Source of the DNA: Candidatus Poseidoniaceae archaeon
GTDB taxonomy: Archaea > Thermoplasmatota > Poseidoniia > Poseidoniales > Poseidoniaceae
Reading direction: 5' to 3'
NCBI GenBank assembly: GCA_028822845.1
Contig: JAPKCS010000008.1
Span: 786 to 64,785 of the forward strand
DNA: 64,000 nt
A program made the position numbers and the translations under genes. Each line of letters opens with the position of its first letter. Within the stretch, counting starts at the first letter, position 1. The notes under the pieces were generated by a model. It was not told the origin of the DNA, did not search any database, and saw only the letters and a program-made list of their open reading frames with translations. This document shows positions 17,205 through 58,059 of this stretch, in pieces.

Positions 17205-19871
17205 ATGGCAACCGTCGTTCATCCGTTTCTCACGGACGGCGTCGAGGCTCGTGCCTACCAAATGAGAGCCCTGCGCTCTGCCCTCACCTCATCAACACTC
17301 ATGGTGATGCCCACTGGCTTTGGGAAAACAGCCGTCGAATGGATGGCCATGGCAGAGGCCCTCAGGCTCAAACGTGGCAAGGTCCTGCTCATCGCCCCAA
17401 CAACTGGTCTTGTCGATCAACAGCGGCGTATGGCAATTGAAATGCTCGCGATTGACAAGGATTCAATCATCACCTACACTGGAGAAGTCAGTCCAGCAAA
17501 ACGCCCCCCGCTCTGGGCAAAGGGAAGCGTCATCATGGCCACATCACAAGTCATCCGCAACGATGCAACAACCGGCACCATCGATCTCAGTGAAGTTGGC
17601 TTGTTGATTGTCGATGAGGCCCATCACAGCACCGGCAACCATGCCTATGCACAGGTTGGCGACCTTTACCTCACCGCCAACCCTGAGGCGCTTGTTCTTG
17701 GCGCCACGGCAAGTCCTGGCTCGACGGAGCCTCACATTCTTGAGGTGGCTCGAAGGCTCGGTATCGAACGCCTTGATGTTTGCAAGAAGGAAGATCCATT
17801 GCTGGGCCCTTACACTGTGAAGCTGGACAACATCCCTCATCGGTTGGCCTTACCGCCTGAACTCAATGCCCTGCTCCATCCTCTGCAAGCCCATCAAGAC
17901 GAAGAAGCGGAACACCTGCGTCGGCTGGGCTTCCTTGCACCAACTGGTCACCTCTCATCCAAATTGATCGAAGAAGCTCAACGAAGAGCAAGTACGGCGA
18001 TTCAACGCAGGGACCGACGCGGGTATGATGCTGCTCGGCGCATTGGCGATTTGAGACGCACTCATTTGTTGCTGGACCTGTTGCGCACTCAAGGGACCAC
18101 TTCCGCATTGTCTTTTTTACAACGAGCGGAGGACGATGGGCGAACTGGTGAACGAACCACCAATCGGTTTGTCGGTCTTCCTGCCATCCATGCCTTTCGA
18201 ACCGCTGGAAAGGATGTTGGCGAGTTGCATCCAAAACCTGCCTATGTACAAGCATTGGTTGAAAAACAGCGGTTCGAAAACCCCGACAGTAAAATCCTCA
18301 TCTTTACCGAATACAGAGACACTGTTGAGCATCTTGTCAAAAGATTAAGCGGCATTGAAGGAATCAATGTTGACAAGTTTATTGGCCAGTCAGGCAAAGG
18401 CAAGCGGAAAGGAATGACTCAGAAGGAACAACTCGCCCAGTTAAACCGTTTTCGAGAAGGCGACCTCAACATCCTTGTCGCTACATCCGTAGGCGAGGAA
18501 GGCCTCGATGTCCCCGCTGCTGATCTGGTGATCCTCTACGAACCAGTAGCAAGTGCCATCCGAGCGATTCAACGGCGTGGACGTACCGCACGCCAACGAG
18601 CTGGAAGCGTCCATACCCTCATCGCCGCCGATACCAGGGACGAATACGTCAACATTGCAGCAGAACGGAGAGAGGCGAAAATGTACACATTGTTGCAGCG
18701 TATCCATGACCGAGGACGCTTACCTCGACGTCCACCGCCTCCACAAGATGTGCTTCAGGCGTTCACGGTGGTGCACGAAGGCATCGAGCAGACACCACAG
18801 GCCTTTATCGAAGCGGAAACCGAGCGTTTAACCCCCGAACCAGAAGCGAATGCACCGCCTGAAGATTCTATAGAGCGAGTCGTAAAGAAGAAGCAAGCAC
18901 CTGTACTCAGTCCAATCGACCAGCGCCCTCGCCAACAGATGGGTCTTGATCAATTCACAACCCCGCAGGAACAAAAACCAACACAGTCACCATCGATTGA
19001 ACCAACGCCAACATCACAAGACCCACAGTCAGGGCCAATTCTTGATGGGAAAGCGCACAGGGAACGTGAACAACTCGCCGCTGCCGCTGCTGCTGCCAGC
19101 ATCACAGCGATGCAGGTTGGAACCGTACCAGGATCGAGCATCATCCTCGATCACCGAGAAGCGAACTCCAGTTTGGCCCCCCACCTCAAGAGCATGGGGG
19201 CACATGTAGCCTTCAAGCACCTTACAAGCGGTGATATCCAGCTCTCCGAAAGAGTGCTGATCGAAAGAAAAACCGCACGGGATCTCGTGACATCATTGAC
19301 CGACGGTCGGCTTCTTCATCAGTGTCGCCGACTGAATGCTGCCGCTTTACGTCCCCTCTTATTGGTCGAAATCGGTGACGGGCACGGCCAAGCGGTTCAC
19401 CCTGATGCGGTGCATGGCGCTCTTGCCTACATCAGCCTCGACCTCGGCATGCCTGTTATGATGACAAAGAATCCAGAGGAAACCGCTCGTTTCCTGATTG
19501 CTGCAGCACGGCGAGAACATGACGTCATGGAGCGTTGGGCCTTTGAAAGTCTGCAGCGAGCACCCGATCTGGACGATGAACGGGCCATTGAACGAGCCAC
19601 ATCTGCCGCTGCAGCAGAAATCAAAGCGATTGAACTTGGTGAAGATGGCACGACACCGCTTGGCCAGCGTTGGCCAAGTCATGCCAAGGAAGAACAGACC
19701 GCAGTGCTCGCCTCCATTGACGGAGTTGGACCCACCAGGGCTGCGGCTTTGATCGATGCTTTTGGAAACATTGCTGGAGTCTTCGCAGCAAGTAAGGAAG
19801 CGTTGCTCGGTGCAAAAAACATAGGTGCTACGACAGCGATGAGTGTCTACCAAATTCTTCACGAAGGCTGA
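17205..19871 (+). CDS. hef: Hef (helicase-associated endonuclease for fork-structured DNA; XPF/FANCM family)
   Basis: An SF2 helicase (MPTGFGKT, DEAHH, ATSVGEEGLDVP, QRRGRTAR) is followed by a long P/Q/E-rich linker. Then come the ERCC4 nuclease (ILDHRE...GDIQLSERVLIERKTARDL) and a C-terminal HhH2 (IDGVGPTRAAALIDAFG). Confidence 0.9.
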   Translation: MATVVHPFLTDGVEARAYQMRALRSALTSSTLMVMPTGFGKTAVEWMAMAEALRLKRGKVLLIAPTTGLVDQQRRMAIEMLAIDKDSIITYTGEVSPAKRPPLWAKGSVIMATSQVIRNDATTGTIDLSEVGLLIVDEAHHSTGNHAYAQVGDLYLTANPEALVLGATASPGSTEPHILEVARRLGIERLDVCKKEDPLLGPYTVKLDNIPHRLALPPELNALLHPLQAHQDEEAEHLRRLGFLAPTGHLSSKLIEEAQRRASTAIQRRDRRGYDAARRIGDLRRTHLLLDLLRTQGTTSALSFLQRAEDDGRTGERTTNRFVGLPAIHAFRTAGKDVGELHPKPAYVQALVEKQRFENPDSKILIFTEYRDTVEHLVKRLSGIEGINVDKFIGQSGKGKRKGMTQKEQLAQLNRFREGDLNILVATSVGEEGLDVPAADLVILYEPVASAIRAIQRRGRTARQRAGSVHTLIAADTRDEYVNIAAERREAKMYTLLQRIHDRGRLPRRPPPPQDVLQAFTVVHEGIEQTPQAFIEAETERLTPEPEANAPPEDSIERVVKKKQAPVLSPIDQRPRQQMGLDQFTTPQEQKPTQSPSIEPTPTSQDPQSGPILDGKAHREREQLAAAAAAASITAMQVGTVPGSSIILDHREANSSLAPHLKSMGAHVAFKHLTSGDIQLSERVLIERKTARDLVTSLTDGRLLHQCRRLNAAALRPLLLVEIGDGHGQAVHPDAVHGALAYISLDLGMPVMMTKNPEETARFLIAAARREHDVMERWAFESLQRAPDLDDERAIERATSAAAAEIKAIELGEDGTTPLGQRWPSHAKEEQTAVLASIDGVGPTRAAALIDAFGNIAGVFAASKEALLGAKNIGATTAMSVYQILHEG

Positions 19872-19872
19872 A

Positions 19873-20733
19873 TCAGCCGCCGATGACAAGTGCGCGAACT
19901 CGGAGTTGTGCGAAGCGATCTGGGAAGTGCCCCAATGCAAACGCAATGAGTTCAGCAAGATGGACGATTGGCATTGAGGTGTCCTTTCCACTTACCTTTC
20001 CTGCTTTGGACTGATACGAATCAAGGTTGGAGTGGGAGATTGTGCAAGCGCTCACCATCATGTCTGCTCCGCTGCTTTTTGCATCGGCCAACACAGAGGC
20101 TGTCATCTTCATCACTGGCTTGGTGATGGTCAACAAGGCAGGTGCACCGACGCTTTGGCACTTTGAGTCGTAATCGACGGGTGTGCCACCAAGGGCCATG
20201 ATCAGCTGTTCGAGGTACGACGGCATGAACGGGTCGTCGCCTGCGGTTGCACCTTGGCGTTGCATGTTTGGCCCATAGTAAGGGGCGACATTCAAACGAA
20301 TAGGATTGATGACGGCATCTCGAATTTTATCGAGTCCGACTTCTTCGACCAGCAAATGCAACAAATGGCGTGGTTGAGATTCGCCTTTGTATTCGATGCC
20401 GGTGGTTCGAGCGATGAGGTTGTTGATGGTGTTTGCAAACCCAGCGTCGGATGAAAATTCATCGACGGTGTCGCACATGATTCCGTAACTGGTGGCGCAG
20501 GTGGTCATGACATCAACGCCTTTGGTTTCAGCGAGTGCAAGGTTGCGAGCAACCAAAGCATGTTGCAATTTAGGAGAAGATTGCTTGATGATGTTCCCAC
20601 CATCGCTGGATGCTTTTGGAATTTCAATCAATTGAATCCCAAGAGTTTTGCACAGTGGTTGAAGACAGTCTTCAACTTCAGAAGAGGCTGCACGAGCGGT
20701 GTTTCCGGGGTAATATGCAATTTTCAAAGCCAT
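19873..20733 (-). CDS. HdrB-like (CCG-domain) protein lacking most cluster-ligand cysteines
   Basis: It is collinear with heterodisulfide reductase subunit B as I recall it (IAYYPG.., ARNLALAETKGVDVMTTC, TGIEYKGESQPRHLL..VGLDK, LNVAPYYG, SGADMMVSAC.ISH, MPIVHLAELIAFALG). The CCG-motif positions read SSDGG and CQSVG, and GC reads GN/GP. A GAGGTG lies 9 nt after the stop of the upstream gene. Confidence 0.75.
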   Translation of the reverse strand: MALKIAYYPGNTARAASSEVEDCLQPLCKTLGIQLIEIPKASSDGGNIIKQSSPKLQHALVARNLALAETKGVDVMTTCATSYGIMCDTVDEFSSDAGFANTINNLIARTTGIEYKGESQPRHLLHLLVEEVGLDKIRDAVINPIRLNVAPYYGPNMQRQGATAGDDPFMPSYLEQLIMALGGTPVDYDSKCQSVGAPALLTITKPVMKMTASVLADAKSSGADMMVSACTISHSNLDSYQSKAGKVSGKDTSMPIVHLAELIAFALGHFPDRFAQLRVRALVIGG

Positions 20734-20742
20734 AGAAACACC

Positions 20743-22908
20743 TCAGAACCTCTGGTCGATTTCGTTGAACAGGCTAATCACTTCATGATGCGCTTCGATT
20801 TTCCTGTTGATCATGTTCGGAATCTTCCCGACACCAGCTGGAGGGGCGACAAGAGCCTGTAGGCTTCGAATTGGAGGTGCACCGGTTCGTGTGAATCCGA
20901 GGAACATACGGGCAGATACACCATCGAAGATGTTGCTGATCAGCCCGACAGGTCCGAGGACTTGGCGGTAAAGTGTGGTTTCATTGACGTTGCCACTCCA
21001 CTTGACACTGCGCCCGTACCACTTGACGAGGCGTCCGTGTGGGCCGGTGTAGTTGGTGACGTTGAGCAGGTGACTTCGTGCCGCATTCAGGGCTTTAGAA
21101 GCGGTGCGACCTTCAGAACCATACCGAGCAATTGATGCCATGTCTGCTTCTGACCAGAGGCCATGTTCTGCATCCAGCAATCCCGCAAGGGAGGCTTTCT
21201 GTGCCTCGCCTGTCCGAGGGTCAAGGGTTCGAGTCCAATGCTGAAGAAGCACTGCTGGACCCTTGTAGGATTCATCGAAGGGAACGGTGTCCGACATTGC
21301 ATGAAGCAATTGGTAGGACGTCACGTCGGTCATGGCGTGAAGGGTTGAGGCGGTTTCAGAGTCCATGGTACCCATGGCACTTCCGTTGATCAGCGTTGCA
21401 CCTTCGCGCGGATCTGCTCGTAGCCAAGGCTTGCTTTGGCTGCGGTTTGCTTCAAAGCCAGAATAGTCCACCATCAAATCACGAATGACTGGGTAACCTG
21501 GCAGTGGTTCAATCTTGAGTTCGCCACTTTCGCCAACCAAATCGCTGATGCAAGCCATGTCGGCTAACACAACTCGTCCATTGACGCGAACACCACTCGT
21601 TGGGGACCCGTTTCCATTTCCACGTCGGAAGGAAAAGCTGCCGTCAACATCTTGTTGAATGGCAGTGAGAAGGTCTTCGAGTGTTGCATGACCTGGAACT
21701 GCACAAGCGATGGTGTCCCATCCCGATTCATTGGCTGTGGGGCAGTAACGGAACAAGGAGAGGGTAATGGAAAGGTCTGCTTGGACGATCATGCCAGGTG
21801 CGAAGTCGCCGTCATCAACTTCAGCCGAGGTTCCTGAACCATAGGTGATCATCTCATCGAGGAGAACTTCTTGAAGGGTTCCCGATTCATCGACGCATGC
21901 GAGCATAGGGAGCGCTTGAGAGACCCATTGTGACCAAGGTGTGTCGAAGTCAACATCGCAAAGTTGGATGTCTTGGACACGCTTTGCGCCAAGTTCGACG
22001 TACTTGTCATCCCAGTCGGTTCCTGCTTTACAGAATTCATCATAGGATGAATCGCCAATTGCACAGATGCTGAAGTGAACATTCGAGAGCGATGGTTTTC
22101 CGCTGCTGACGGTGTTCCACAATGTCTCGGCATTGTCTGGCATTTCGCCTTCGCCCCATGTGGAAGTGATGATGAGGGTGCGGGAATGGGCATTGAGTTT
22201 CCCTGCATCGAACCCGTCCATGTCGTAAATCGTTGGAATAAGGCCGTAATCTGCGGCGAGTTTTGCTGTTTTGTCAGCAAGTCCAGCAGCGTTACCGGTT
22301 TGAGAACCAAACAAGATAGCAAGGCTTCTGTCCCCGCCCATCAAGGCTTGGAACGCCTCGCTTCCACCTGTTGCCATCGCTGCAGCAGGAACTGCTGTAG
22401 ATTCTGAAGCGGATTCTATGTTTGCAGATTCATCGTAAGCGCCGCCGTCAACTTCAGCCATTTTAGGGAGCACTGAGTTCGCCCATTCTTGCCACGGGGC
22501 TTCGTATTCTACATCGCAAAGTTGAGTGTTGTGCACTCTTTTGGCACCAAGTGAAGTGAACTTCTCGTCCCAGTCAGTACCGGCTTTACAAAATTCAGGG
22601 TACGAACTGTCTCCTATCGCGCATATGGAGAAATTGACGTTCGCAAGGGGGGGGTTTGATTCGTTTGTTGCAGCCCACAAATCCTCTGCGTTGTCTGGCA
22701 TTTCGCCATCGCCCCAAGTGGATGTGATGATCAAAATGCGCTTGTGATCAGGGAACTTGGCCGGATCGAAGCCATGCATGTCGATGACCTTTGGATGAAA
22801 TCCCATCTTCTTAGCCATTTTTGCCGTATTACCTGCCAATTCTTCTGCGTTCCCTGTTTGGGAACCAAAGAAAATTGCCAGCTCTGGATTACCTGTGATG
22901 GAAGTCAT
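20743..22908 (-). CDS. fusion protein: two tandem flavodoxin (FMN-binding) modules plus a cysteine-depleted SdhB/FrdB-like domain plus a ~110-aa C-terminal extension
   Basis: Residues about 10-150 and 196-335 are paralogous flavodoxin modules (FGSQTGNA, ITSTWG[DE]GEMPDNAE, FSICAIGDSSY.EFCKAGTDWD). Residues about 378-615 are collinear with the succinate dehydrogenase Fe-S subunit (LFRY.P, FSFRR, VNG, KIEPLPGYPVIRDLMVDYSGF, YKGPAVLLQHW) with the cluster cysteines replaced. Confidence 0.75.
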   Translation of the reverse strand: MTSITGNPELAIFFGSQTGNAEELAGNTAKMAKKMGFHPKVIDMHGFDPAKFPDHKRILIITSTWGDGEMPDNAEDLWAATNESNPPLANVNFSICAIGDSSYPEFCKAGTDWDEKFTSLGAKRVHNTQLCDVEYEAPWQEWANSVLPKMAEVDGGAYDESANIESASESTAVPAAAMATGGSEAFQALMGGDRSLAILFGSQTGNAAGLADKTAKLAADYGLIPTIYDMDGFDAGKLNAHSRTLIITSTWGEGEMPDNAETLWNTVSSGKPSLSNVHFSICAIGDSSYDEFCKAGTDWDDKYVELGAKRVQDIQLCDVDFDTPWSQWVSQALPMLACVDESGTLQEVLLDEMITYGSGTSAEVDDGDFAPGMIVQADLSITLSLFRYCPTANESGWDTIACAVPGHATLEDLLTAIQQDVDGSFSFRRGNGNGSPTSGVRVNGRVVLADMACISDLVGESGELKIEPLPGYPVIRDLMVDYSGFEANRSQSKPWLRADPREGATLINGSAMGTMDSETASTLHAMTDVTSYQLLHAMSDTVPFDESYKGPAVLLQHWTRTLDPRTGEAQKASLAGLLDAEHGLWSEADMASIARYGSEGRTASKALNAARSHLLNVTNYTGPHGRLVKWYGRSVKWSGNVNETTLYRQVLGPVGLISNIFDGVSARMFLGFTRTGAPPIRSLQALVAPPAGVGKIPNMINRKIEAHHEVISLFNEIDQRF

Positions 22909-22925
22909 GAGATGTCACTACCCTT

Positions 22926-22941
22926 GTGCAACTTGTTGCAC
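22926..22941. promoter_or_regulatory. perfect 7-2-7 inverted repeat GTGCAAC-TT-GTTGCAC upstream of the flavodoxin-fusion gene
   Basis: Read directly from the sequence. It lies 18-33 nt upstream of the ATG at 22908, in the 125-nt gap after the thermosome gene. Confidence 0.3.
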
Positions 22942-23033
22942 ACCGCAGTGGTCTTTGAAGGTTATCATTTGCAATGATGATTTTTTGGCTCTGTTGTTTG
23001 TTTTGAGGGAGGGGGGCAAGATCTTGCCAAACA

Positions 23034-24656
23034 TCACATTTGGAAGTCGCCCATGCCACCCATGTCATCGCCCATCGACACGCCTTTCGAAGAAATGACG
23101 TCGTCAATTCGCAAGATCATGATTGCAGTTTCGGTAGCAGACTGAATCGCTTGTTCAACAACACGCATTGGCTCGACAACGTTGGCTTCCTTCATGTCAA
23201 CAACGCCACCTTCGTAGACATTGATTCCAGCGTGGGAATGACCATCAGCATGTGCTTTGCGCAATTCGATGAGGGTCGTCACGGGGTCCAGTCCTGCGTT
23301 TTCTGCGAGGGTGCGAGGAATGATTTCGAGGGCAGAAGCAAAGGCTTCGATTGCCATTTGTTCACGGCCGCCGACACCTTCTGCATAGGTCCGAAGATCA
23401 CGAGAGAGAGCTGCGAGCACACTGCCGCCCCCGGTAAGGACTGCGCCATCTTCCCAAGCCACTGAAACAACACCAACAGCATCGTCAAACGCTCGGCGGA
23501 TTTCATCGACCACGTGTTCGGTACCGCCACGGAGCAGCACAGAAACAGACTTTGCTTCTGGGCAGCCGGTGATGAAGGTCATATCGGATTCGCCGATCTT
23601 GCGCTCTTCTACCTTAGCGGCGTGGCCCAAATCATCAGGGGACAAATCGTCTAAGTTGGTGACAATACGGCCACTGGTCGCCTTGGAAAGGGCTTCCATA
23701 TCGGATTTCTTAGCTCGGCGGATTGCGAATATTCCAGCTTTGGCCATGTAATGCTGAGCCAATTCATCGATGCCTTTCTGGCAGACGAGAACTGTTGCTC
23801 CTGCGGCTTGGATTTTCTCGACAAGTCCACGGATGTAATTCTCTTCTTCTTCAAGGAAAAGAGCAAGTTGGCTTGGGTCAGTGATTTGGATTTTAGCGTC
23901 GACTTCAGTCTTCTTGACTTCAATCGCTGAGTTCACAAGCGCTATCTTAGCATCTGCGATGGTGCGAGGCATGCCTGCGTGGACGCGCTCTTTGTCGAGC
24001 AGAATACCGTCGATGAGGGATGAATCCTTGATGGACCCACCTTGTCGCTTTTCAACCTTGATATCGCTCAAATCAACGATGCGTTCATCGCCTTCAATAA
24101 CACCAACAGCGTTCACTGCTCGGACACAAATGTCTGCCATGAAGCTCTTGACTGCGCCAGCGGACTTACCCGTCAAGGCCGTCTTTGCAACTTCGGTGAG
24201 GACAGCGTCATCATTGTGCGTTGCAATCCCGTGGTTTTGAAGCAATTCAACTGCTTTTTCTGCAGCAAGTCGGAAGCCTTCGCAAATCACAGTCGGATGC
24301 ACGTTTTGTTCGATCAGGTCTTCACTGCGCTTGAGTAACTCGCCAGAAAGAACGACCGCTGAGGTGGTTCCGTCATAGCAGTGCTGTTCTTGCGTTTTTG
24401 CAACTTCGATGATCATCTTGGCAGCAGGGTGGTCGATGTCCATTTCCTTGAGGATGGTTGCGCCATCATTGGTGATGACGACGTCGCCCATCGAATCGAC
24501 GAGCATCTTGTCCATGCCCTTTGGTCCAAGGGTTGAGCGCACTGCATCTGCAACTGCTTTCGCTGCTGCGATGTTGTTTGATTGGGCACTTCGTCCACGC
24601 GTTCGTTGGGTGCCATCTTTGAGGATGAAGATTGGGGCTTGGCCGTTTCCGTACAT
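23034..24656 (-). CDS. ths: thermosome subunit (group II chaperonin)
   Basis: 540 aa with [36 protein letters not shown] and [11 protein letters not shown], ending in a GGMG-type tail. Confidence 0.95.
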
Positions 24657-24739: not shown

Positions 24740-27700
24740 TCAAGCCATTCCGTTCTGCTCCAGCCACTTTTGGCCGTAGACTTCCCATTGCTCCATGGTC
24801 CAGCCTTCAGGAAGGCCGGCAGCTGGGATTGGAGGGGTCTTTGAGACGGGTGCTGCAGCGGCCGGAGCGGGCGCTGCAGGGGCGGGCGCCATAGCCGGTT
24901 GAGCAGCGGCGGGAGGCAGTGAAGAGGGTAAAGCCCCAGGCACTGGCACTGTTGGAGCAGAAGCAACGGCTCCGTAGGTCGCTTCCAGACTGTTTTCATA
25001 GCCTTCTTCGCCCCATCCACCGTATTCATCTTCCTCTTCTTCTGTGCGTAAGATGTTCAAAATCACATACACGCCGACACCCATCATTGCAGCAAATCCG
25101 ACCCACATCAAGATGCTTCCAACTGGTAAGCCGTCATCTGCGCCTGCTACGCCATCAGCATCGTTTGATTTCTTGATCAGAATAACTTGGAGGTTGCTGT
25201 TTGCGGCATCGCTGACAGTCTCTGAGCGGGCCCAGAGGGTCAAGTTGGTCGATAAGGAATCCGAGCCGAGGTTCAAGAGCGTTGTTTCCGAGACTTCGAA
25301 GTACACGGTCACTTCACGTTCTTCCTCAACGGCAAGGACGAACGAACGGTCGTTGCTTGCGATTCGTGTTTGAACATAGGCTGATGATTCACCGTTGTCC
25401 AAGTCGATGGTCACTGATTGGGCGGTTGTGTATTGGTTTCGTACCTTCACCGTCATGCTCCATTCTTCAGCAGGTTCTGCTTCATCAATGGTGATGGGTG
25501 CTGCCGGGAGGATCTTCAGCCAGTTTTGAGAACCAACAAGGTAAGTTGCTGAACCTTGAGCGTTAATCAAAGCATCATTGACGCTCGTAGCGATGATGTC
25601 GAGGGTGAGTTGGCCAGAGGTTCCCGATTCGAATGAGAAACGGACGGTCACGTTGTAGCTCGCTGCGGTTTCAATTTCAGGGGTTGCCCCGTCAAACAAA
25701 TTGGTGAATTCAATGGTCATGCCATCTGGGACATTCGCCGTCATGGTGAATCGGTCTGGGCTGTTGCCATCGTTGCGAACTTCGAACGCCATCGTTTGCG
25801 CAGGATCGCCAGGAATGTAGGATTGGTCTGCATCTTCATCAGAGACATCGACGGCTGCAGTGTCCAGGATCTCAACGCTGAGAGCGACCGATTTTCTGAC
25901 CAAGGGGTCATCGACGCTGGTGGCTGTAACCGTAACACCGTAGAGGCCGGGAGTGAGACCAACAGGCATTGGGAGGTTCAACTGGATGATGCCTTCGCCG
26001 TCCCATGCATCAAGCACGGAGGTTTGAGCACCGGCGAGGTTTGCCCCAAGAAGCCAGTTTTGCTGAGTGAGTGAAAGGTCGTACTGCTCATCGTCATTGC
26101 CTGTGTTAAACACGGTAATGTAGACTTTCTTGGCAATGCCATTCGCTGGGGCTTGGATGTTCAGTTCTTCAGCCTCGAGGCTCAGTTCACGGTACACGGG
26201 CACCATGATGTTGCGGACGAGGACATCGTTGCCTGCAAGAGAAGTTCCACAGGACGGGCATGTTGCACGTAAATTGAAACTCACATAGGGACTGTTTTCG
26301 GTCCCAAGCGCTGGCATGGCCATTGAATCAGCCGTGACGTTGAGGTTGAAGTTCGTTGCTTGACCCCTGAGGAGGACAATCGGGTTCTGGACAATGGCGC
26401 CTTGATCATCCATGACAAGCCCAATCCAACCTGGCTTGGAAAAGGTTGTAGCGAGGTTAAACGCTGCGTCTTTATTGCCTGAGTTGAGCAAACGGAACGG
26501 GATCAGTCCGGATTCACCCGGTGCAAGGGTCTGAGCGAGGATACCAACCGTACTGGTCAGCGCAACACCGTATTGCTCAGTGACTGCAACAGGCATGGAT
26601 AAACGGGACTTTTCGCCACCGTTTTGGTTGCTGGCATCGGTGAACCATAGGGACCAAGATTGTTGTTGAACATCTGCACCTGGAGGGATCGAAAGGTTGA
26701 CCCACACTTCAACGGTCTCGCCGGCTTTAATGCCAGGCATGAGCACATTTGTGTCATGATCGTTGCTGTTTGGAACATCGATTCGAATCATCTGCATGGC
26801 GGGATCCATCCATGTCAAATTCGAGACATTCGATTGAACACGTACCGAGGCGGTGGAGTAACCATTGTTGGTGACTTGACAACGCAAAATCAGCAGGTCA
26901 TTTGGTGGGGCTGTGTAACCGTTGGTAGGGTTGTCACAATCCACGCCAAGGGTGTAATCTTGGACCTTACTGATACCGAATTGAATGAAGTCGTCAACGT
27001 GGAACCCTTGAGAGGCGCCACCTGAATCGGAGTGAAGAAGCAGGCCCATGCTCCATGAGTTGCCACCGAGGAACAAATCCGGGTTGGAAAGCGTGGATAT
27101 TTGCGACCAGTCGGCCTGTGGATCCCAACTGAGGTTGGTCCACTGACCAGGGGCCTGACTTGGATTTCCGTTGCTCAAATCCCAGTGAAGCGATTCCATG
27201 GCATTGCTGTAATTTCCGGAACTGCGCCACAATTCGATGCTCACGCTGTCACCAGATTGTACACTGCCCCATGCTTGGAGATGGAATTGTGATGAAATAT
27301 AATCACCCGCAAAGAAGGAATTTCGACAAATCCAGGTTTGGTACGACTTCACAAGTTCATTGTCAATTTGGCCACCAGAGCCACATTGGCTGTTTGGATT
27401 GAGGTAAGCGTAGACAAGGCGATCATGGGCACCCGATGGGTAGTTGCTGTCCGAATCAGGGGAATTCGCCCAATGATCGGACCCCACCGCTCCACCAGAG
27501 TTTGTTTGCCACGACCCTTGACCATAGGTCTCCCCTTGAGAACTTCCAGTTCCATCAGCCATGTACCGGGCAGGGAAAAACGATGGTTGACCCGTGAAGG
27601 ATGTGCCGTCAAAAGAATCGCTCATGATCGCGACAGGGACGGACGTTTCTTTGATGTCGTTGTCGTTTCGGTCATCGCCGTTTGAGTCCTTGTCTGTCAT

Positions 27701-28162
27701 TGCTCTGATGATCATACCGCCCGATAGTTCGTTGGTGGTGGTGTCGAGGATGGAGTGGGCTGCAATAGCCGTCCAAGCAAAAGAGGCAGAATCACCTTGA
27801 CCGCCGATGAGATCGTTGGATGTCCAAGTAAAGGTCTCGACAACAAAACCGATTGGGTGGACGATTTGAATCATGGCGTCGGTGCTCTTTCCGGAGAATG
27901 AGGAACCGCCACGGGCAATGGTCATGGTGATCTCGATGGTTTGACCTTGGAAGATGTAATCAGTGGTTGTCCCGTTTGGTTGAACCCATGTATCAGCGCT
28001 TGTGCTTGCGTTCCCTAACGAAATTCCAGTCACTCGGAAATCGTCGTTCGCACCAGCACGTGCTGACGCAGCGCTCGCAGGAGCGGCGATGCCAACAGCA
28101 AGGGTTTGCAACAACAAAAGGGCAACGAGGGTTAACGGAGACAAGCGACGCATAAACACCAA
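24740..28162 (-). CDS. large secreted, membrane-anchored surface protein (S-layer/adhesin-like)
   Basis: 1140 aa. It has an N-terminal signal peptide (LVALLLLQTLAVGIAAPASAASA), a long Thr/Ser/Asn/Asp-rich ectodomain and a single C-terminal TM (ILMWVGFAAMMGVGVYVILNI). An acidic and then Pro/Ala-rich cytoplasmic tail ends in GWTMEQWEVYGQKWL. Confidence 0.7.
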   Translation of the reverse strand: MVFMRRLSPLTLVALLLLQTLAVGIAAPASAASARAGANDDFRVTGISLGNASTSADTWVQPNGTTTDYIFQGQTIEITMTIARGGSSFSGKSTDAMIQIVHPIGFVVETFTWTSNDLIGGQGDSASFAWTAIAAHSILDTTTNELSGGMIIRAMTDKDSNGDDRNDNDIKETSVPVAIMSDSFDGTSFTGQPSFFPARYMADGTGSSQGETYGQGSWQTNSGGAVGSDHWANSPDSDSNYPSGAHDRLVYAYLNPNSQCGSGGQIDNELVKSYQTWICRNSFFAGDYISSQFHLQAWGSVQSGDSVSIELWRSSGNYSNAMESLHWDLSNGNPSQAPGQWTNLSWDPQADWSQISTLSNPDLFLGGNSWSMGLLLHSDSGGASQGFHVDDFIQFGISKVQDYTLGVDCDNPTNGYTAPPNDLLILRCQVTNNGYSTASVRVQSNVSNLTWMDPAMQMIRIDVPNSNDHDTNVLMPGIKAGETVEVWVNLSIPPGADVQQQSWSLWFTDASNQNGGEKSRLSMPVAVTEQYGVALTSTVGILAQTLAPGESGLIPFRLLNSGNKDAAFNLATTFSKPGWIGLVMDDQGAIVQNPIVLLRGQATNFNLNVTADSMAMPALGTENSPYVSFNLRATCPSCGTSLAGNDVLVRNIMVPVYRELSLEAEELNIQAPANGIAKKVYITVFNTGNDDEQYDLSLTQQNWLLGANLAGAQTSVLDAWDGEGIIQLNLPMPVGLTPGLYGVTVTATSVDDPLVRKSVALSVEILDTAAVDVSDEDADQSYIPGDPAQTMAFEVRNDGNSPDRFTMTANVPDGMTIEFTNLFDGATPEIETAASYNVTVRFSFESGTSGQLTLDIIATSVNDALINAQGSATYLVGSQNWLKILPAAPITIDEAEPAEEWSMTVKVRNQYTTAQSVTIDLDNGESSAYVQTRIASNDRSFVLAVEEEREVTVYFEVSETTLLNLGSDSLSTNLTLWARSETVSDAANSNLQVILIKKSNDADGVAGADDGLPVGSILMWVGFAAMMGVGVYVILNILRTEEEEDEYGGWGEEGYENSLEATYGAVASAPTVPVPGALPSSLPPAAAQPAMAPAPAAPAPAAAAPVSKTPPIPAAGLPEGWTMEQWEVYGQKWLEQNGMA

Positions 28163-54781: not shown

Positions 54782-55789
54782 CTAAGCAGATGGTTCGACT
54801 TTCGGCCATTGACCGCCAACTTGGGAGGTACCATCGGGCACCGTGCTGCCGTGATCGACAACAACCCCTTCCATCGAGACATTCGAACCAACCGTGGCCC
54901 CACGTCCAACCAGGCAATTACGCAAATGTGATTTGGAGCCGACATCAACGCCTGAAAGCAGCGTAGAACGCTCGATATGACAGCCTTGCAACTTCACATC
55001 GGCTTCGATCATGCATCCTTGCACGTGTGCAGTGTCAAACACCTTTGGTTTGGCATGCCAGCTGCCATCGACAACAGCGCCGGTGGAGAAACGCTTTTCT
55101 TCGATGCAGCGTAAAACGCCATCCATCCAAGCATCTGGAGTTCCAGCGTCGATGAAGTAACCTTCGAACTCTGTCCCATTGAGGAGGTTTGCCTCCGCCA
55201 ACTTAGGAAATACATCTCGTTCTATAGAATGGCGGCCTTTTGGCATCCAATCAAATATGTCATCTTCAAAGATGTAAGAACCTGCGTTAATCAAGTTGGA
55301 AAAGACTTCCTCAGGCTTTGGTTTCTCTTTGAATTGAGTGATTCGCTGATCCTCATTGACACCGACAATTCCGAACCTTGTAGGATCTTCGACTTCCCAG
55401 AGTGCCAAGGTACCCACACCGCCGTTTTTACGATGCAAATCAAGCATTGGTTCGATGCTTAACGAGGACACAATGTCACCGTTGAAGCAAGCAAAGGTTC
55501 CGCTGACAACATCTCGGCAATTTCCAAGCGCACCGCCTGTTCCAAGAGGTTCGGCTTCTGGAACGATTCGAACATCAAAATCGACGTCCTTTGAACGGAA
55601 GTAAGATTCGATCAAATCAACTTTGTAGCCACCAGCAACGATCACTTCGTCGACCATGCCAACAGGGACCGCTTCAACCACGCGTTCCAACAATGTCAGG
55701 TCCAGCATAGGCAACAGAGGTTTGGGTATGCCAGCGGTCCATGGCCGGAGCCGAGAGCCGATTCCGCCTGCGAGGACCACAACTTGCAT
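54782..55789 (-). CDS. sugar-1-phosphate nucleotidyltransferase with a C-terminal left-handed beta-helix
   Basis: N-terminal [25 protein letters not shown] (NTP_transferase G-loop). Hexapeptide-like repeats occur in the last ~100 aa. Confidence 0.8.
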
Positions 55790-55927
55790 GGTACCGCCAA
55801 CGAATGCCTACCTATCAATAAATCTCTTCTTGTCCATGCAACTGACCCTTCGCTTTGCTTCAAAACCTCTAACGAGGTGAACAAAGTGTTCAAAGACGGT
55901 GTTTCAGTGGGAGGTTTGGAGAGACCC

Positions 55928-57136
55928 ATGAACATCCACGAATACCAAGGAAAAATGTTGCTACGAGCTGCGGGTGTTACCGTGCTTGAAGGCGTCCACT
56001 GCACCACTGTTGAACAAGCATTGAGCGCTTATGATAAACTTGGCAGCAAAGTTGTCGCTGTCAAATCTCAGATCCACGCTGGTGGCCGAGGCAAAGGCAC
56101 CGTCATGAACCCCGCAACACGGGATGTTGTGATGGAAGGCGGCGTGAAGATTGCCTTCTCGAGGGAAGAAGTCGACACATACTCCACCAACATCCTCGGG
56201 AACCTTCTCGTAACGATTCAAACCGGAGATGAGGGGAAACTTGTCAAAAACCTCTACATCGAGGCTGGCTGTGACATCGCACACGAATACTACCTCGCTT
56301 TGCTCGTTGACCGGGACAACAAATCAGTCCTGATCATGGCTTCCACTGAAGGCGGAATGGACATTGAAGAAGTGGCTGAACACACACCAGAATTAATTCA
56401 CAAGGTAACCGTTGATGCTAACAGCGGCCTTCTTGGTTTCCAGAAGCGAGACCTCGGCATGGCGCTTGGCTTGAGCGGTTCTGCTCTGAAATCCTTTGGA
56501 AAGATGCTTTCATCCATGTACACAATGTTCTGTAACGAAGATTGCGCCATGGTCGAAATCAACCCACTTGTCCGAACAGGTGCCGATGAAATTGTCGCTT
56601 TGGACGCAAAGATTTCCTTTGATGAGAATGCTGAATTCCGTCACAAGAACTGGGATGACCTCCGGGACCTCTCAGAAGAAGAAGACACCGAAATCCGTGC
56701 AAAGGAAACCGGTTTGTCTTACGTCAAACTCGATGGAAACATCGGGTGTTTGGTCAACGGAGCCGGTTTGGCAATGGCGACCATGGACGTCATCAAACTC
56801 TACGGTGGCGAACCTGCAAACTTCCTCGACGTCGGCGGTGGCGCTGATGAGGAACAAGTCAAAACTGCGTTCTCAATCATCCTTGAAGATCCAAACGTCA
56901 AGGGTATTCTTGTCAACATCTTCGGTGGAATCATGCGCTGTGACATCATTGCACGAGGCGTGATCGCTGCAACTGAGGCTTTGTCGCTCCAGGTACCCCT
57001 CGTGGTACGATTGGCTGGAACAAACGTCGATGAAGGCAAGGCAATCCTTGCGGCATCGACCCTTAACATCCATTCTGCTGACGATTTAGCAGAAGGTGCT
57101 CAAAAGATTGTAGCACTTATTGGAGGTGAACAGTAA
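55928..57136 (+). CDS. sucC: succinyl-CoA synthetase beta subunit
   Basis: [17 protein letters not shown], the ATP-grasp domain and [18 protein letters not shown]. The start was trimmed to 55928. Confidence 0.9.
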
Positions 57137-58059
57137 TGGCGATTTGGATTGAAGAAGACGCAAAGGTGCTCGTTCAAGGCATCACTGGAAAGCAAGGCAT
57201 GTTCCATGCTGATAAAATGGTTGAATACGGCACCAACATCGTCGGTGGCTGCACGCCTGGAAAGGGTGGTCAAACGGTTGATTTGCAAGGCATGGACTTC
57301 CCGGTGTGGGACAGCATGACCGAAGCAATCATCGCAACTGATGCTGATGCCACCGTTATCTACGTGCCACCACCGTTTGCTGCTGAAGCAATCATGGAAG
57401 CCGCTGACGCATTTGATTCGATCAAAGGCGAAGGTGTCGTGGTTTGCATCACTGAAGGTATCCCAACCCTTGACATGGTCAAGGCAGTTGCTTACGTCAA
57501 CAACCGCCCAGGTGTTCGTCTCATCGGACCAAACTGCCCTGGAATCATCACTCCTGGTGACACAGGTGGAGCAAAGATCGGTATCATGCCAGGACATATC
57601 CACGCCAAGGGACGCATTGGTATCGTTTCGAAGTCGGGTACCTTAACCTACGAAGCTGTTGCTCAAACCATGAGCATCAATGAAGGACAATCCACCTGCA
57701 TTGGTATCGGTGGCGATCCAGTCAATGGAACTGGATTCATCGAATGCCTCGCTGCGTTCGAAAAAGATCCTCACACAGAGGCGATCATTATGATTGGCGA
57801 AATCGGAGGAAACGCTGAGCAAGAAGCTGCGGCGTGGGCTGCGACCAATGTCACAAAACCAATCGTTGGTTTCGTGGCAGGAGCAACCGCACCACCAGGA
57901 AAGCGAATGGGCCACGCTGGCGCAATCATCTCCGGTGGGAAAGGCACGGCAGAAGAGAAATTCGAAGCATTCCGAGCGGCTGGCATTGCATGTGCAATGG
58001 ACCCGTCTGAACTTGGTAAGGTGCTCTTGGAATCACTCAAGTCTGCTGGCTTGCGATGA
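57136..58059 (+). CDS. sucD: succinyl-CoA synthetase alpha subunit
   Basis: [23 protein letters not shown] and the phosphohistidine loop MGHAGAII. Its start overlaps the sucC stop. Confidence 0.95.

What the first reader, a model, noticed from the sequence alone, without database searches (positions are those of the whole stretch)
19873..22908. Operon of Fe-S-ligand-stripped SdhB-like and HdrB-like proteins, the former fused to two tandem flavodoxins
Seen in sequence:
- The 721-aa protein starts with two paralogous flavodoxin modules. Both carry FGSQTGNA, ITSTWG(D/E)GEMPDNAE and FSICAIGDSSY.EFCKAGTDWD.
- Residues about 378-615 run collinear with the succinate dehydrogenase / fumarate reductase Fe-S subunit (LFRY.P, FSFRR...VNG, KIEPLPGYPVIRDLMVDYSGF, YKGPAVLLQHW).
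- The places where SdhB carries its three cysteine clusters read otherwise. The clusters are 2Fe-2S (RRSCxxxxCGSC...C), 4Fe-4S (CxxCxxCxxxCP) and 3Fe-4S (CxxxxxCxxxCP). Here they read RRGNGNGSPTSGVRVNG, TDVTSYQLLHAMSD and GLWSEADMASIARYGSEG.
- The gene 9 nt downstream is collinear with HdrB, and its two CCG motifs read SSDGG and CQSVG. GC reads GN/GP, and CPxCH reads CTISH.
- Both ORFs are long and intact, so they do not look like decaying pseudogenes.

Established knowledge: an SdhB-like module paired with an HdrB-like CCG module is the architecture of thiol:fumarate reductase TfrB and of type-E succinate dehydrogenase (SdhB+SdhE). In those enzymes electron transfer depends on exactly these cysteines.

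Inference: this could be an iron-free relay in which FMN replaces the Fe-S chain, which would be attractive in iron-poor seawater. It could also be a non-redox scaffold derived from a TfrB-like ancestor. I know of no described system with this architecture.
Basis: partly seen in the sequence, partly recalled or inferred. Interest (0 to 1): 0.8.

Follow-up and report, generated by a model that had tools for sequence, protein, structure and literature searches.

The report
Cluster-less SdhB/SdhE pair with swappable carriers
A two-gene operon found in Marine Group II archaea encodes copies of two succinate-dehydrogenase subunits that have lost their iron-sulfur wiring and instead carry fused flavodoxin or ferredoxin modules, which close relatives swap like cassettes; its function is unknown.

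Summary
On the minus strand, 20743-22908 encodes Fld-Fld-SdhB-like (721 aa). Nine nt downstream, 19873-20733 encodes an HdrB/SdhE-like protein (286 aa). Profile, PDB-sequence and Foldseek comparisons all confirm the homologies. The protein keeps 0 of 12 SdhB cysteine ligands and 2 of 10 CCG ligands.

These are not pseudogenes. dN/dS is about 0.05. The pair lies at one syntenic position (thermosome, A, B, convergent Hef, rpl3 operon) in every related locus examined. A genome scan found relatives in 387 stretches of species-representative genomes.

Further findings:
- **Ancestry.** The pair derives from the sdhB-sdhE genes of non-classical (type E) sdhA-sdhB-sdhE operons, not from TfrB.
- **Order of losses.** The SdhB wire was already gone in deep-branching members that carry only a ferredoxin. 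The last SdhE cluster was lost later. So FMN did not simply replace the wire.
- **Cassette swapping.** The N-terminal module alternates between a [4Fe-4S] ferredoxin and a flavodoxin among very close relatives. A genome with 92-93% identical flanking DNA and a 96.7% identical backbone carries the ferredoxin form, with sharp breakpoints.

Best reading: a redox-inert SdhB*/SdhE* core tethers mobile electron carriers, and this window holds the fully iron-free version. The partners and the reaction are unknown.

The parts
20743..22908 (-). Gene A (721 aa): Fld1, linker, Fld2, SdhB-like core, C-terminal extension
   Evidence: ORF; Pfam and NCBIfam; family alignment A1
22459..22887 (-). Flavodoxin module 1 (about aa 8-150). 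This is the swappable position. Sister genomes carry a [4Fe-4S] ferredoxin here instead.
   Evidence: Pfam Flavodoxin_1 stretch 12-132. CysJ FMN domain 1ykg_A, E 3e-19. Ferredoxin forms.
22390..23029 (-). Swapped segment relative to the closest genome (L007): the intergenic region plus codons 1-173. BLASTN finds no alignment of this segment to the corresponding L007 segment, while both flanks are 92-93% identical.
   Evidence: BLASTN breakpoints; protein alignment; best nucleotide match of the cassette among fetched loci is 70%
22333..22458 (-). Ala/Ser/Glu-rich linker of variable sequence and length (about aa 151-192). It ends in the conserved GGSEAFQALMGGDRS junction, where the recombination breakpoint lies.
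   Evidence: Low conservation in A1 columns about 175-225; breakpoint
21889..22332 (-). Flavodoxin module 2 (about aa 193-340). This is the fixed module. Its FMN motifs are invariant across the family: FGSQTGNA, ITSTWGEGEMPDNA, CAIGD..YDE.CKAG.
   Evidence: Invariant columns in A1; CysJ 6efv_A, E 3.9e-19
21064..21777 (-). SdhB-like core (about aa 378-615) with 0 of 12 cluster cysteines. Most former ligand positions of the two cubane-type clusters are now hydrophobic residues. S539 and E587 are invariant across the family.
20746..21063 (-). Highly conserved C-terminal extension (about aa 616-721, motif VNETTLYRQVLGP). It is shared with long-form SdhB proteins of sdhA-sdhB-sdhE operons.
   Evidence: Invariant block in A1. 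P0280 aligns through query position 316 of 352 and carries INETTL. NCBIfam PRK12576 and PRK12577 match P0280.
19873..20733 (-). Gene B (286 aa): SdhE/HdrB-like protein with two CCG domains that keeps 2 of 10 cluster cysteines (C79, C230)
22953..22963 (-). Conserved upstream element AACCTTCAAAG, 45-55 nt before the gene A start codon. It, or a close AACCTT[C/G]AAAG variant, lies upstream of most related loci inspected, whichever cassette they carry.
   Evidence: upstream regions of 74 loci; this is the only match in the 64 kb window at up to 1 mismatch.

Best explanation
**What it is.** The two genes encode a conserved, selected complex of Poseidoniales (Marine Group II). It descends from the SdhB and SdhE subunits of a non-classical (type E) succinate:quinone oxidoreductase.

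**The core.** The core (the SdhB-like part of gene A plus gene B) keeps its fold but no longer binds its five Fe-S clusters. I read it as a redox-inert docking scaffold.

**The carriers.** All redox capacity sits in carrier modules fused to the N-terminus of the SdhB-like protein.
- A fixed FMN flavodoxin (Fld2) sits next to the core.
- In front of it, on a flexible Ala/Ser/Glu-rich tether, sits a second carrier. It is either a [4Fe-4S] ferredoxin or another flavodoxin (Fld1).
- The outer carrier picks up or delivers single electrons from partner enzymes and passes them to Fld2.

**Interchangeability.** Ferredoxin and flavodoxin are functionally interchangeable at the outer position. This window carries the Fld-Fld form, so the whole complex is predicted to contain no iron.

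**Shown:** homologies, ligand loss, purifying selection, conserved synteny and wide occurrence, intact FMN motifs, the cassette swap, and the order of losses.

**Inferred:** that A and B form a heterodimer (from their homologues and the operon arrangement), that the carriers move electrons, and that the core is only a scaffold. The donor, the acceptor and the reaction are unknown.
For: **Homology and fold:**

**No Fe-S ligands remain in the core.**
- 0 of 12 SdhB cysteines. Former cubane-cluster positions now read V, Y, L and M, I.
- 2 of 10 CCG cysteines.

**Function is maintained.**
- dN/dS against the closest genome is 0.053 for the gene A backbone and 0.045 for gene B.
- 387 stretches in a collection of one genome per species encode a relative. 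The best 80 are almost all labelled Poseidoniales, Poseidoniaceae, Poseidonia or uncultured euryarchaeote.
- The same synteny holds even in members only 38-39% identical.

**The carriers look functional.**
- FMN-binding motifs of Fld2 are invariant and those of Fld1 are conserved.
- The closest solved relatives are the FMN domains of CysJ and cytochrome P450 reductase, which are shuttle domains.

**The outer module is interchangeable.**
- Architectures found: Fd; Fd-Fd; Fd-Fld; Fld-Fld.
- The Fd-Fld and Fld-Fld forms interleave on the backbone tree.
- L007 has 92-93% identical flanking DNA and a 96.7% identical backbone, but carries Fd where this window has Fld1.

**Ancestry.**
- The nearest Cys-bearing relatives lie in sdhA-sdhB-sdhE operons.
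- Gene B is 37% identical to such an SdhE.

**Stepwise iron loss.** Deep forms keep a full N-terminal CCG motif (5 of 5 Cys). The Thalassarchaeaceae member L087 and the unnamed deep member L089 keep 2 of 5. The window, L001 and L002 keep 1 of 5.
Against: - No partner, substrate or activity is known.
- No experiment or multimer model shows that A and B bind each other.
- A purely passive scaffold would not obviously need the very high conservation seen in the C-terminal extension. It would also not obviously need family-invariant polar residues at former ligand positions (S539 and E587 in A; D44, S194 and H234 in B). These hint at a remodelled site with a job of its own.
- Neighbouring genes (thermosome, Hef, ribosomal proteins) give no functional clue.
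- Interchangeability of Fd and Fld is inferred from the evolutionary pattern, not measured.
Confidence: 0.5

Rival explanations
1. Iron-free complex II. The SdhB-like core still docks an SdhA-type flavoprotein encoded elsewhere. The tethered FMN domains carry electrons from its FAD to quinone or another acceptor in place of the Fe-S chain.
For: The N-terminal 2Fe-2S-type domain, which contacts SdhA in solved complexes (established knowledge), keeps its fold at pLDDT above 90. FMN domains of the CysJ/CPR type are known swinging shuttles. The ancestors were SdhA partners.
Against: No sdhA-like gene sits near the pair in any locus whose gene list I read. One genomic survey reports canonical complex II in both MGII families (PMC6336850). 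That report may itself be confounded, because JGI names gene B a succinate dehydrogenase cytochrome b subunit. The Fe-S wire was lost in forms that have only a ferredoxin and no FMN. Conservation of the SdhA-contact surface was not tested.
Confidence: 0.13
2. Carrier-dependent oxidoreductase with a remodelled active site. Fld2 FMN, fed by the outer Fd or Fld, directly reduces a quinone, disulfide or other small substrate. The substrate binds in the former cluster pocket at the SdhB*/SdhE* interface.
For: Family-invariant polar residues sit at former ligand positions near the predicted interface: S539 and E587 in A; D44, S194, C230, S233 and H234 in B. Deep-branching members keep one complete CCG site, the catalytic cluster type of HdrB and SdhE (PMC2754724). 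Flavodoxin-fold FMN proteins such as WrbA reduce quinones directly (own knowledge).
Against: The catalytic cluster is gone in Poseidoniaceae while the proteins stay equally constrained. The chemistry would therefore have had to move to FMN. No substrate pocket has been shown. No membrane anchor is evident: the highest 19-residue hydropathy is 1.2-1.3.
Confidence: 0.2
3. Non-electron-transfer pseudoenzyme. The complex is a structural or regulatory protein. Its flavodoxin or ferredoxin modules sense redox state or cofactor status rather than relay electrons.
For: All ancestral catalytic cofactors of the core are lost. There is no functional neighbourhood. An operon-specific conserved upstream element suggests dedicated regulation.
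Against: A sensor would not be expected to tolerate repeated exchange of a [4Fe-4S] domain for an FMN domain with different chemistry. Two carriers in series on a tether look like a relay. The FMN motifs are invariant.
Confidence: 0.15
4. Decaying pseudogenes or an assembly artefact.
For: Loss of almost all cofactor ligands in both proteins. NCBIfam scores are far below the family cut-offs.
Against: dN/dS is about 0.05. ORFs are intact across the homologous protein clusters and genomes found. The replacement residues are themselves invariant. Both models fold confidently.
Confidence: 0.01

Closest known systems
SdhB and SdhE subunits of non-classical (type E) succinate:quinone oxidoreductase and of methylmenaquinol:fumarate reductase (sdhA-sdhB-sdhE operons; Sulfolobus, Campylobacter, Wolinella)
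   Same: A long-form SdhB with the same C-terminal extension, followed directly by an HdrB-like CCG protein of about 285 aa. Gene B is 37% identical to a Nitrospirota SdhE. NCBIfam MFR SdhE matches at E 1e-35.
   Different: There is no sdhA in the operon. 0 of 12 SdhB ligands and 2 of 10 SdhE ligands remain. Ferredoxin or flavodoxin modules are fused to the N-terminus. Scores are far below the family cut-offs.
HdrB of HdrABC heterodisulfide reductase (5odc_B, 8rvu_B)
   Same: The same fold, with TM 0.85-0.88. Sequence match E 3.7e-33.
   Different: Both non-cubane [4Fe-4S] sites are missing. Identity is lower (25-29%) than to SdhE. There is no HdrA or HdrC in the context.
Thiol:fumarate reductase TfrB
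   Same: It combines SdhB-like and HdrB-like modules. NCBIfam TfrB matches weakly at E 1.5e-6.
   Different: TfrB fuses the two modules in one chain and keeps its clusters. Here they are two proteins. Their nearest relatives are SdhB/SdhE operons, not TfrB.
FMN domains of CysJ, cytochrome P450 reductase, NOS and MioC
   Same: Best matches for both flavodoxin modules, with the same FMN-binding motifs.
   Different: No FAD/NADPH domain is present. The modules are in tandem and fused to an SdhB-like protein.
Ferredoxin/flavodoxin substitution under iron limitation (petF versus isiB/fldA in marine phototrophs and bacteria)
   Same: An iron-free flavodoxin and an Fe-S ferredoxin occupy the same functional slot (general background in PMC10287166 and PMC7039249, listed).
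   Different: Here the alternatives are fused N-terminal cassettes of one gene. They are fixed genetically between sister lineages, not two regulated genes in one genome. A link to iron supply was not tested.

Membership tests
SdhB / FrdB iron-sulfur subunit | SdhB fold (an N-terminal 2Fe-2S-type domain plus a helical ferredoxin domain) | tested here: met
   Foldseek 6lum_B: E 1.7e-14, TM 0.84 normalised to the target. Pfam Fer2_3 scores 41.7 bits against a cut-off of 27.
SdhB / FrdB iron-sulfur subunit | Twelve (or eleven) cysteine ligands for the 2Fe-2S, 4Fe-4S and 3Fe/4Fe-4S clusters | tested here: not met
   0 of 12 in this protein and 0-1 of 12 in the 38 family members aligned. The four nearest Cys-bearing relatives tabulated keep 11-12.
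SdhB / FrdB iron-sulfur subunit | Curated whole-protein score cut-off of an SdhB model | tested here: not met
   NCBIfam PRK05950 scores 60.4 bits against a cut-off of 228. TIGR00384 scores 54.2 against 88.
Type E succinate:quinone oxidoreductase (SdhABE(F)) | sdhA flavoprotein gene in the same operon | tested here: not met
   Absent from every locus whose gene list I read. Present next to the nearest Cys-bearing relatives.
Type E succinate:quinone oxidoreductase (SdhABE(F)) | Long-form SdhB directly followed by a CCG-domain SdhE | tested here: met
   The gene order and sizes match. The C-terminal extension motif is shared.
HdrB / SdhE CCG-domain proteins | Two CX(n)CCGX(m)CXXC motifs that bind [4Fe-4S] clusters and/or Zn | tested here: not met
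   The ten positions read N, S, D, C, S and P, S, V, C, S. That is 2 of 10 cysteines. The motif definition comes from PMC2754724.
HdrB / SdhE CCG-domain proteins | HdrB fold | tested here: met
   Model pLDDT 88.4 and pTM 0.89. Foldseek 8rvu_B: E 3.4e-20, TM 0.87-0.88.
HdrB / SdhE CCG-domain proteins | Curated score cut-offs | tested here: inconclusive
   Pfam CCG scores 21.4 bits against 20.6, so it just passes. NCBIfam TIGR03288 scores 134.7 against 345 and MFR SdhE scores 123.7 against 500, so both fail.
Flavodoxin_1 (FMN domains of the flavodoxin / CysJ type) | Pfam model match and the FMN-binding motifs: the phosphate loop GSQTGNA plus the aromatic residues W in TSTWGEG and Y in GD.SY | tested here: met
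   195.6 bits over two copies. The motifs are conserved in both modules and invariant in Fld2. Actual FMN binding was not measured.
Assimilatory sulfite reductase flavoprotein CysJ (the name some sources give gene A) | FAD/NADPH-binding ferredoxin-reductase domain; curated cut-off | tested here: not met
   Only profile positions about 58-202 of 597 are matched. The score is 245 bits against a cut-off of 668.
Pseudogene | Frameshifts, premature stops or relaxed selection | tested here: not met
   The ORFs are intact. dN/dS is 0.045-0.053.

The most novel reading that the evidence does not exclude
The pair is a previously unrecognised oxidoreductase that is nearly or completely iron-free. Low-potential electrons enter through the swappable outer ferredoxin or flavodoxin, for example from 2-oxoacid:ferredoxin oxidoreductases. 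They pass to the fixed FMN. They are then delivered to quinone or a disulfide at a remodelled, cluster-less SdhB*/SdhE* pocket. The choice between the Fd and Fld cassettes would follow the iron regime of the water mass. This would make it a genetic marker of iron stress in one of the ocean's most abundant archaeal groups.
Probability: 0.15. Interest if true: 0.85.

Novelty: new variant of a known kind. Interest (0 to 1): 0.7.

Why it matters
- **Ecological weight.** Poseidoniales are among the most abundant planktonic archaea and have no cultured representative. This operon appears in every related genome region I examined, is under strong selection, and has only been mis-named in passing as "sulfite reductase flavoprotein" and "succinate dehydrogenase cytochrome b".
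- **A rare evolutionary series.** Living intermediates document how an Fe-S electron wire was dismantled step by step while the protein scaffold was kept. Electron carriage moved to tethered modules.
- **A novel form of a classic swap.** The classic ferredoxin/flavodoxin substitution occurs here as a recombining cassette inside one gene.
- **Annotation risk.** Pathway calls of "complex II" in MGII genomes based on KEGG or Pfam may be partly contaminated by these paralogues.
- **Possible use.** If the cassette choice follows iron supply, it would be a simple metagenomic marker of iron stress in heterotrophic archaea.

Tried and rejected
- **Pseudogene or artefact.** Rejected: dN/dS is about 0.05, the replacement residues are invariant, and hundreds of intact copies exist.
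- **TfrB ancestry.** Rejected in favour of sdhB-sdhE of sdhA-sdhB-sdhE operons.
- **"FMN replaced the Fe-S chain" as a sequence of events.** Rejected: forms with only ferredoxin already lack the wire.
- **New metal site at the old cubane clusters.** Unlikely, because most replacements there are hydrophobic. S539 and E587 remain unexplained.
- **Transmembrane anchoring.** No segment reaches the usual hydropathy threshold. Peripheral binding is not excluded.
- **Upstream word AACCTTSAAAG as a generic promoter.** Rejected: it occurs once in 64 kb.
- **Donor of the Fld1 cassette.** Not found. The best nucleotide match among 86 loci is 70%. The closest Fld1 proteins are 76-77% identical.
- **SdhA or other redox partner in the window.** None was found among the 20 larger ORFs scanned. 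Succinyl-CoA synthetase lies at 55784-58059, but far from the pair.
- **Literature.** Five searches found no description of this protein pair.
- **PDB entry 3KWL.** It matches both models but is only listed as uncharacterised.

Full report
**1. What is there**

Both genes lie on the minus strand.
- Gene A, 20743..22908, encodes 721 aa.
- Gene B, 19873..20733, encodes 286 aa and starts 9 nt after the stop of A.
- A thermosome gene (23034..24656) lies upstream on the same strand.
- A Hef-type helicase/nuclease gene (17205..19871, plus strand) converges on gene B. Only one nucleotide separates the two ORF ends.
- Beyond Hef lie rpl3, rpl4 and the rest of the ribosomal-protein operon (gene lists of orthologous loci).
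- The closest public genomes are Poseidoniales (Marine Group II).

**2. Homology checks**

| Region | Test | Result |
|---|---|---|
| Gene A | Pfam Flavodoxin_1 | two copies, E 5.6e-58 |
| Gene A | Pfam Fer2_3 | E 1.3e-10, above the gathering score |
| Gene A | NCBIfam SdhB PRK05950 | E 1.4e-16, nearly the whole profile (5-233 of 238) |
| Gene A | Best solved relative by sequence | E. coli SdhB, E 4e-10 |
| Gene A, aa 356-721 | AlphaFold model | pLDDT 82; about 90 or more over most of the SdhB-like part |
| Gene A, aa 356-721 | Foldseek | SdhB chains, E about 1e-14, TM up to 0.84 |
| Gene B | NCBIfam HdrB TIGR03288 | E 3.7e-39 |
| Gene B | NCBIfam MFR SdhE | E 1e-35 |
| Gene B | Solved HdrB by sequence | E 3.7e-33 |
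| Gene B | AlphaFold model | pLDDT 88, pTM 0.89 |
| Gene B | Foldseek | HdrB, TM 0.85-0.88 |
| Both flavodoxin modules | Best solved relatives | FMN domains of CysJ, cytochrome P450 reductase and NOS |

**3. Ligand audit**

I aligned the SdhB-like region with 37 family members and 27 Cys-bearing SdhB proteins. Twelve columns are cysteine in 21-27 of the 27 canonical sequences.

| SdhB cluster | Residues in this protein |
|---|---|
| 2Fe-2S | N431, S435, S438, D450 |
| 4Fe-4S | V529, Y532, L535, G597 |
| Third cluster | S539, E587, M590, I593 |

- No cysteine is kept.
- The two cubane sites are largely filled with hydrophobic side chains. That looks like cavity filling rather than a new metal site.
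- S539 and E587 are invariant in all 38 family members and remain unexplained.

In gene B the ten CCG ligands read N11, S43, D44, C79, S82 and P155, S194, V195, C230, S233. The same pattern occurs in 110 of 112 sequences aligned, with variation only at positions 43, 82 and 155. Most of the replacement residues are themselves invariant.

**4. Not pseudogenes**

- Against the closest genome (L007), dN/dS is 0.053 for the gene A backbone and 0.045 for gene B. Against a more distant one (L009) it is 0.043 and 0.045.
- The protein family appears in many 90%-identity clusters.
- A scan of one genome per species found 387 stretches encoding a relative. The best 80 are labelled Poseidoniales, Poseidoniaceae, Poseidonia, euryarchaeote, Methanobacteriota or Thermoplasmatota, plus one "Verrucomicrobiales" contig that is probably mis-binned.
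- The gene order thermosome, A, B, convergent Hef, rpl3 holds even in members only 38-39% identical.
- One published survey noticed this gene order. It recorded the genes as "succinate dehydrogenase cytochrome b subunit" and "sulfite reductase NADPH flavoprotein" (PMC6741140).

**5. Ancestry**

- A search of 1.84 billion representative proteins with aa 370-721 found a compact family: 23 representatives below E 1e-30. After a wide gap come ordinary Cys-bearing SdhB proteins.
- The nearest of these are long-form SdhB proteins of 316-327 aa. NCBIfam PRK12576 and PRK12577 fit them best.
- They share the C-terminal extension. P0280 reads INETTLPLRV where gene A reads VNETTLYRQV.
- Two of them were looked up. 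Both sit in sdhA-sdhB-CCG-protein operons.
- Gene B is 37% identical (E 3e-61) to the CCG protein of the Nitrospirota operon. It is only 25-29% identical to HdrB structures.
- The pair therefore descends from sdhB-sdhE of a non-classical (type E) enzyme, not from TfrB.

**6. Modular N-terminus**

Family members carry one of four N-terminal arrangements:
- one ferredoxin (P0253, 446 aa);
- two ferredoxins (P0250);
- ferredoxin plus flavodoxin (about 653 aa);
- two flavodoxins (about 720 aa).

The ferredoxin has a CxxCxxC...CP motif typical of a single [4Fe-4S] cluster. Among the 133 proteins classified, 60 are Fd-Fld and 58 are Fld-Fld. Among the 80 closest species genomes, 59 are Fd-Fld and 13 are Fld-Fld.

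On a neighbour-joining tree of the shared backbone, the two forms interleave down to the tips.

A tree of the flavodoxin domains shows two things:
- Most Fld1 modules form an old clade separate from Fld2.
- The Fld1 modules of P0002 and P0003 are a recent duplicate of Fld2, so the two-flavodoxin state arose at least twice.

**7. A cassette swap between near-identical genomes**

- L007 (isolate FRAM18_bin109) matches this window at 93.1% nucleotide identity from 27952 to 23030. That stretch covers most of the large upstream ORF and the thermosome gene.
- It matches at 91.9% from 22389 to 14743. That stretch covers the rest of gene A, gene B, Hef, rpl3 and the 3' part of rpl4.
- BLASTN finds no alignment between the two genomes' cassette segments.
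- In L007 the gap holds a ferredoxin. Here it holds Fld1 and its linker.
- From aa 175 to the end the two proteins are 96.7% identical. The breakpoint falls in the conserved junction GGS(E/D)AFQALMGGDRS.
- The donor of this Fld1 was not found. The best nucleotide match is 70%. The closest Fld1 proteins are 76-77% identical.

**8. Order of losses**

- All family members have 0-1 of the 12 SdhB cysteines. This includes the forms with only ferredoxin.
- The C-terminal CCG site of the partner is degenerate in all eight partners compared.
- The N-terminal CCG site is complete (5 of 5 Cys) in the partners of P0253 (Fd), P0250 (Fd-Fd) and P0249 (Fd-Fld).
- It is reduced to 2 of 5 in a Thalassarchaeaceae Fd-Fld member and in the Fld-Fld member P0245.
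- It is reduced to 1 of 5 in the window, L001 and L002.
- The likely sequence is therefore: SdhB wire lost and a ferredoxin fused; then a flavodoxin added; then the last SdhE cluster lost; and finally, in some lineages, the ferredoxin exchanged for a flavodoxin.
- This window is the end state, with no predicted iron site at all.

**9. Mechanism**

The best-supported reading is a redox-inert SdhB*/SdhE* core that tethers mobile carriers.
- Fld2 is fixed, with invariant FMN motifs.
- The outer carrier is exchangeable and sits on a variable Ala/Ser/Glu-rich linker.
- The FMN domains belong to the CysJ/CPR type. By established knowledge these work as swinging shuttles.
- No transmembrane segment is predicted.
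- Heterodimer formation, electron relay and the partners are all inferred.

Three rivals are set out in the Rival explanations section with their evidence:
- an iron-free complex II with an SdhA encoded elsewhere;
- an oxidoreductase in which FMN acts at a remodelled pocket;
- a non-relay pseudoenzyme.

One survey reports canonical complex II in MGII (PMC6336850). I could not verify this. Such calls might be confused by this very pair, because JGI names gene B a succinate dehydrogenase cytochrome b subunit.

**10. Novelty**

Five full-text searches found no description of this architecture. All the folds are known. Three things are new: the cluster-less B/E core under strong selection, the fused carriers, and the Fd/Fld cassette polymorphism. 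I rate it a new variant of a known kind, with high interest for marine microbiology and for the evolution of Fe-S proteins.

Noticed in passing
window 22953-22963 (minus strand), and about 22930-22947: A conserved element, AACCTT[C/G]AAAG, lies 40-87 nt upstream of gene A in most related loci, whichever N-terminal cassette they carry. It occurs only once in the 64 kb window at up to 1 mismatch. In the window an inverted repeat (TGTGCAAC-AA-GTTGCACA) follows it. It may be an operon-specific promoter or regulator site.
   Followed up: partly
PDB entry 3KWL (Helicobacter pylori, uncharacterised protein): This structure matches both the SdhB-like model (E 5e-6) and the HdrB-like model (E 4.8e-10, TM 0.73). 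It may therefore be a fused relative of both halves. It is listed only as 'unknown function'. Its cysteine content was not checked.
   Followed up: partly
window 19871-19875: The Hef-type helicase/nuclease ORF (17205..19871, plus strand) and gene B (ending at 19873, minus strand) converge with a single nucleotide between them. This leaves no room for separate terminators. In Thalassarchaeaceae locus L087 the helicase is shorter (578 aa) and shows no ERCC4 nuclease hit.
   Followed up: no
L082 (NZEQ01000037.1): This contig is labelled 'Verrucomicrobiales bacterium' but carries a typical Poseidoniales Fd-Fld gene A, 64% identical over the backbone. The contig is probably mis-binned.
   Followed up: no
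P0269 (352 aa, from the representative-protein search): This family member starts inside Fld2 and loses similarity after the SdhB-like N-domain, where it runs into low-complexity sequence. It looks like a frameshifted or mis-assembled copy, the only such case noticed.
   Followed up: no
window 24740-28162 (minus strand): A 1140-aa ORF with a hydrophobic N-terminus, many Asn-x-Ser/Thr sites, and a C-terminal hydrophobic stretch followed by a Pro/Ala-rich tail. Its syntenic counterparts carry no recorded Pfam hit. It keeps its position upstream of the thermosome gene in all related loci and is probably a surface protein.
   Followed up: no
window 55784-58059 (plus strand): Succinyl-CoA synthetase beta and alpha subunits (ATP-grasp_2/Ligase_CoA and CoA_binding/Ligase_CoA). 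They lie 33 kb from the pair. This is the only TCA-cycle function seen among the 20 ORFs scanned, and no sdhA was found among them.
   Followed up: partly
P0002 / P0003 and loci L020, L021, L028, L039: In this sub-lineage the first flavodoxin is a recent duplicate of Fld2. It includes the pre-domain segment LL.GDRS and is 71% identical to its own Fld2. It is not a member of the old Fld1 clade, so the two-flavodoxin architecture arose independently here.
   Followed up: partly
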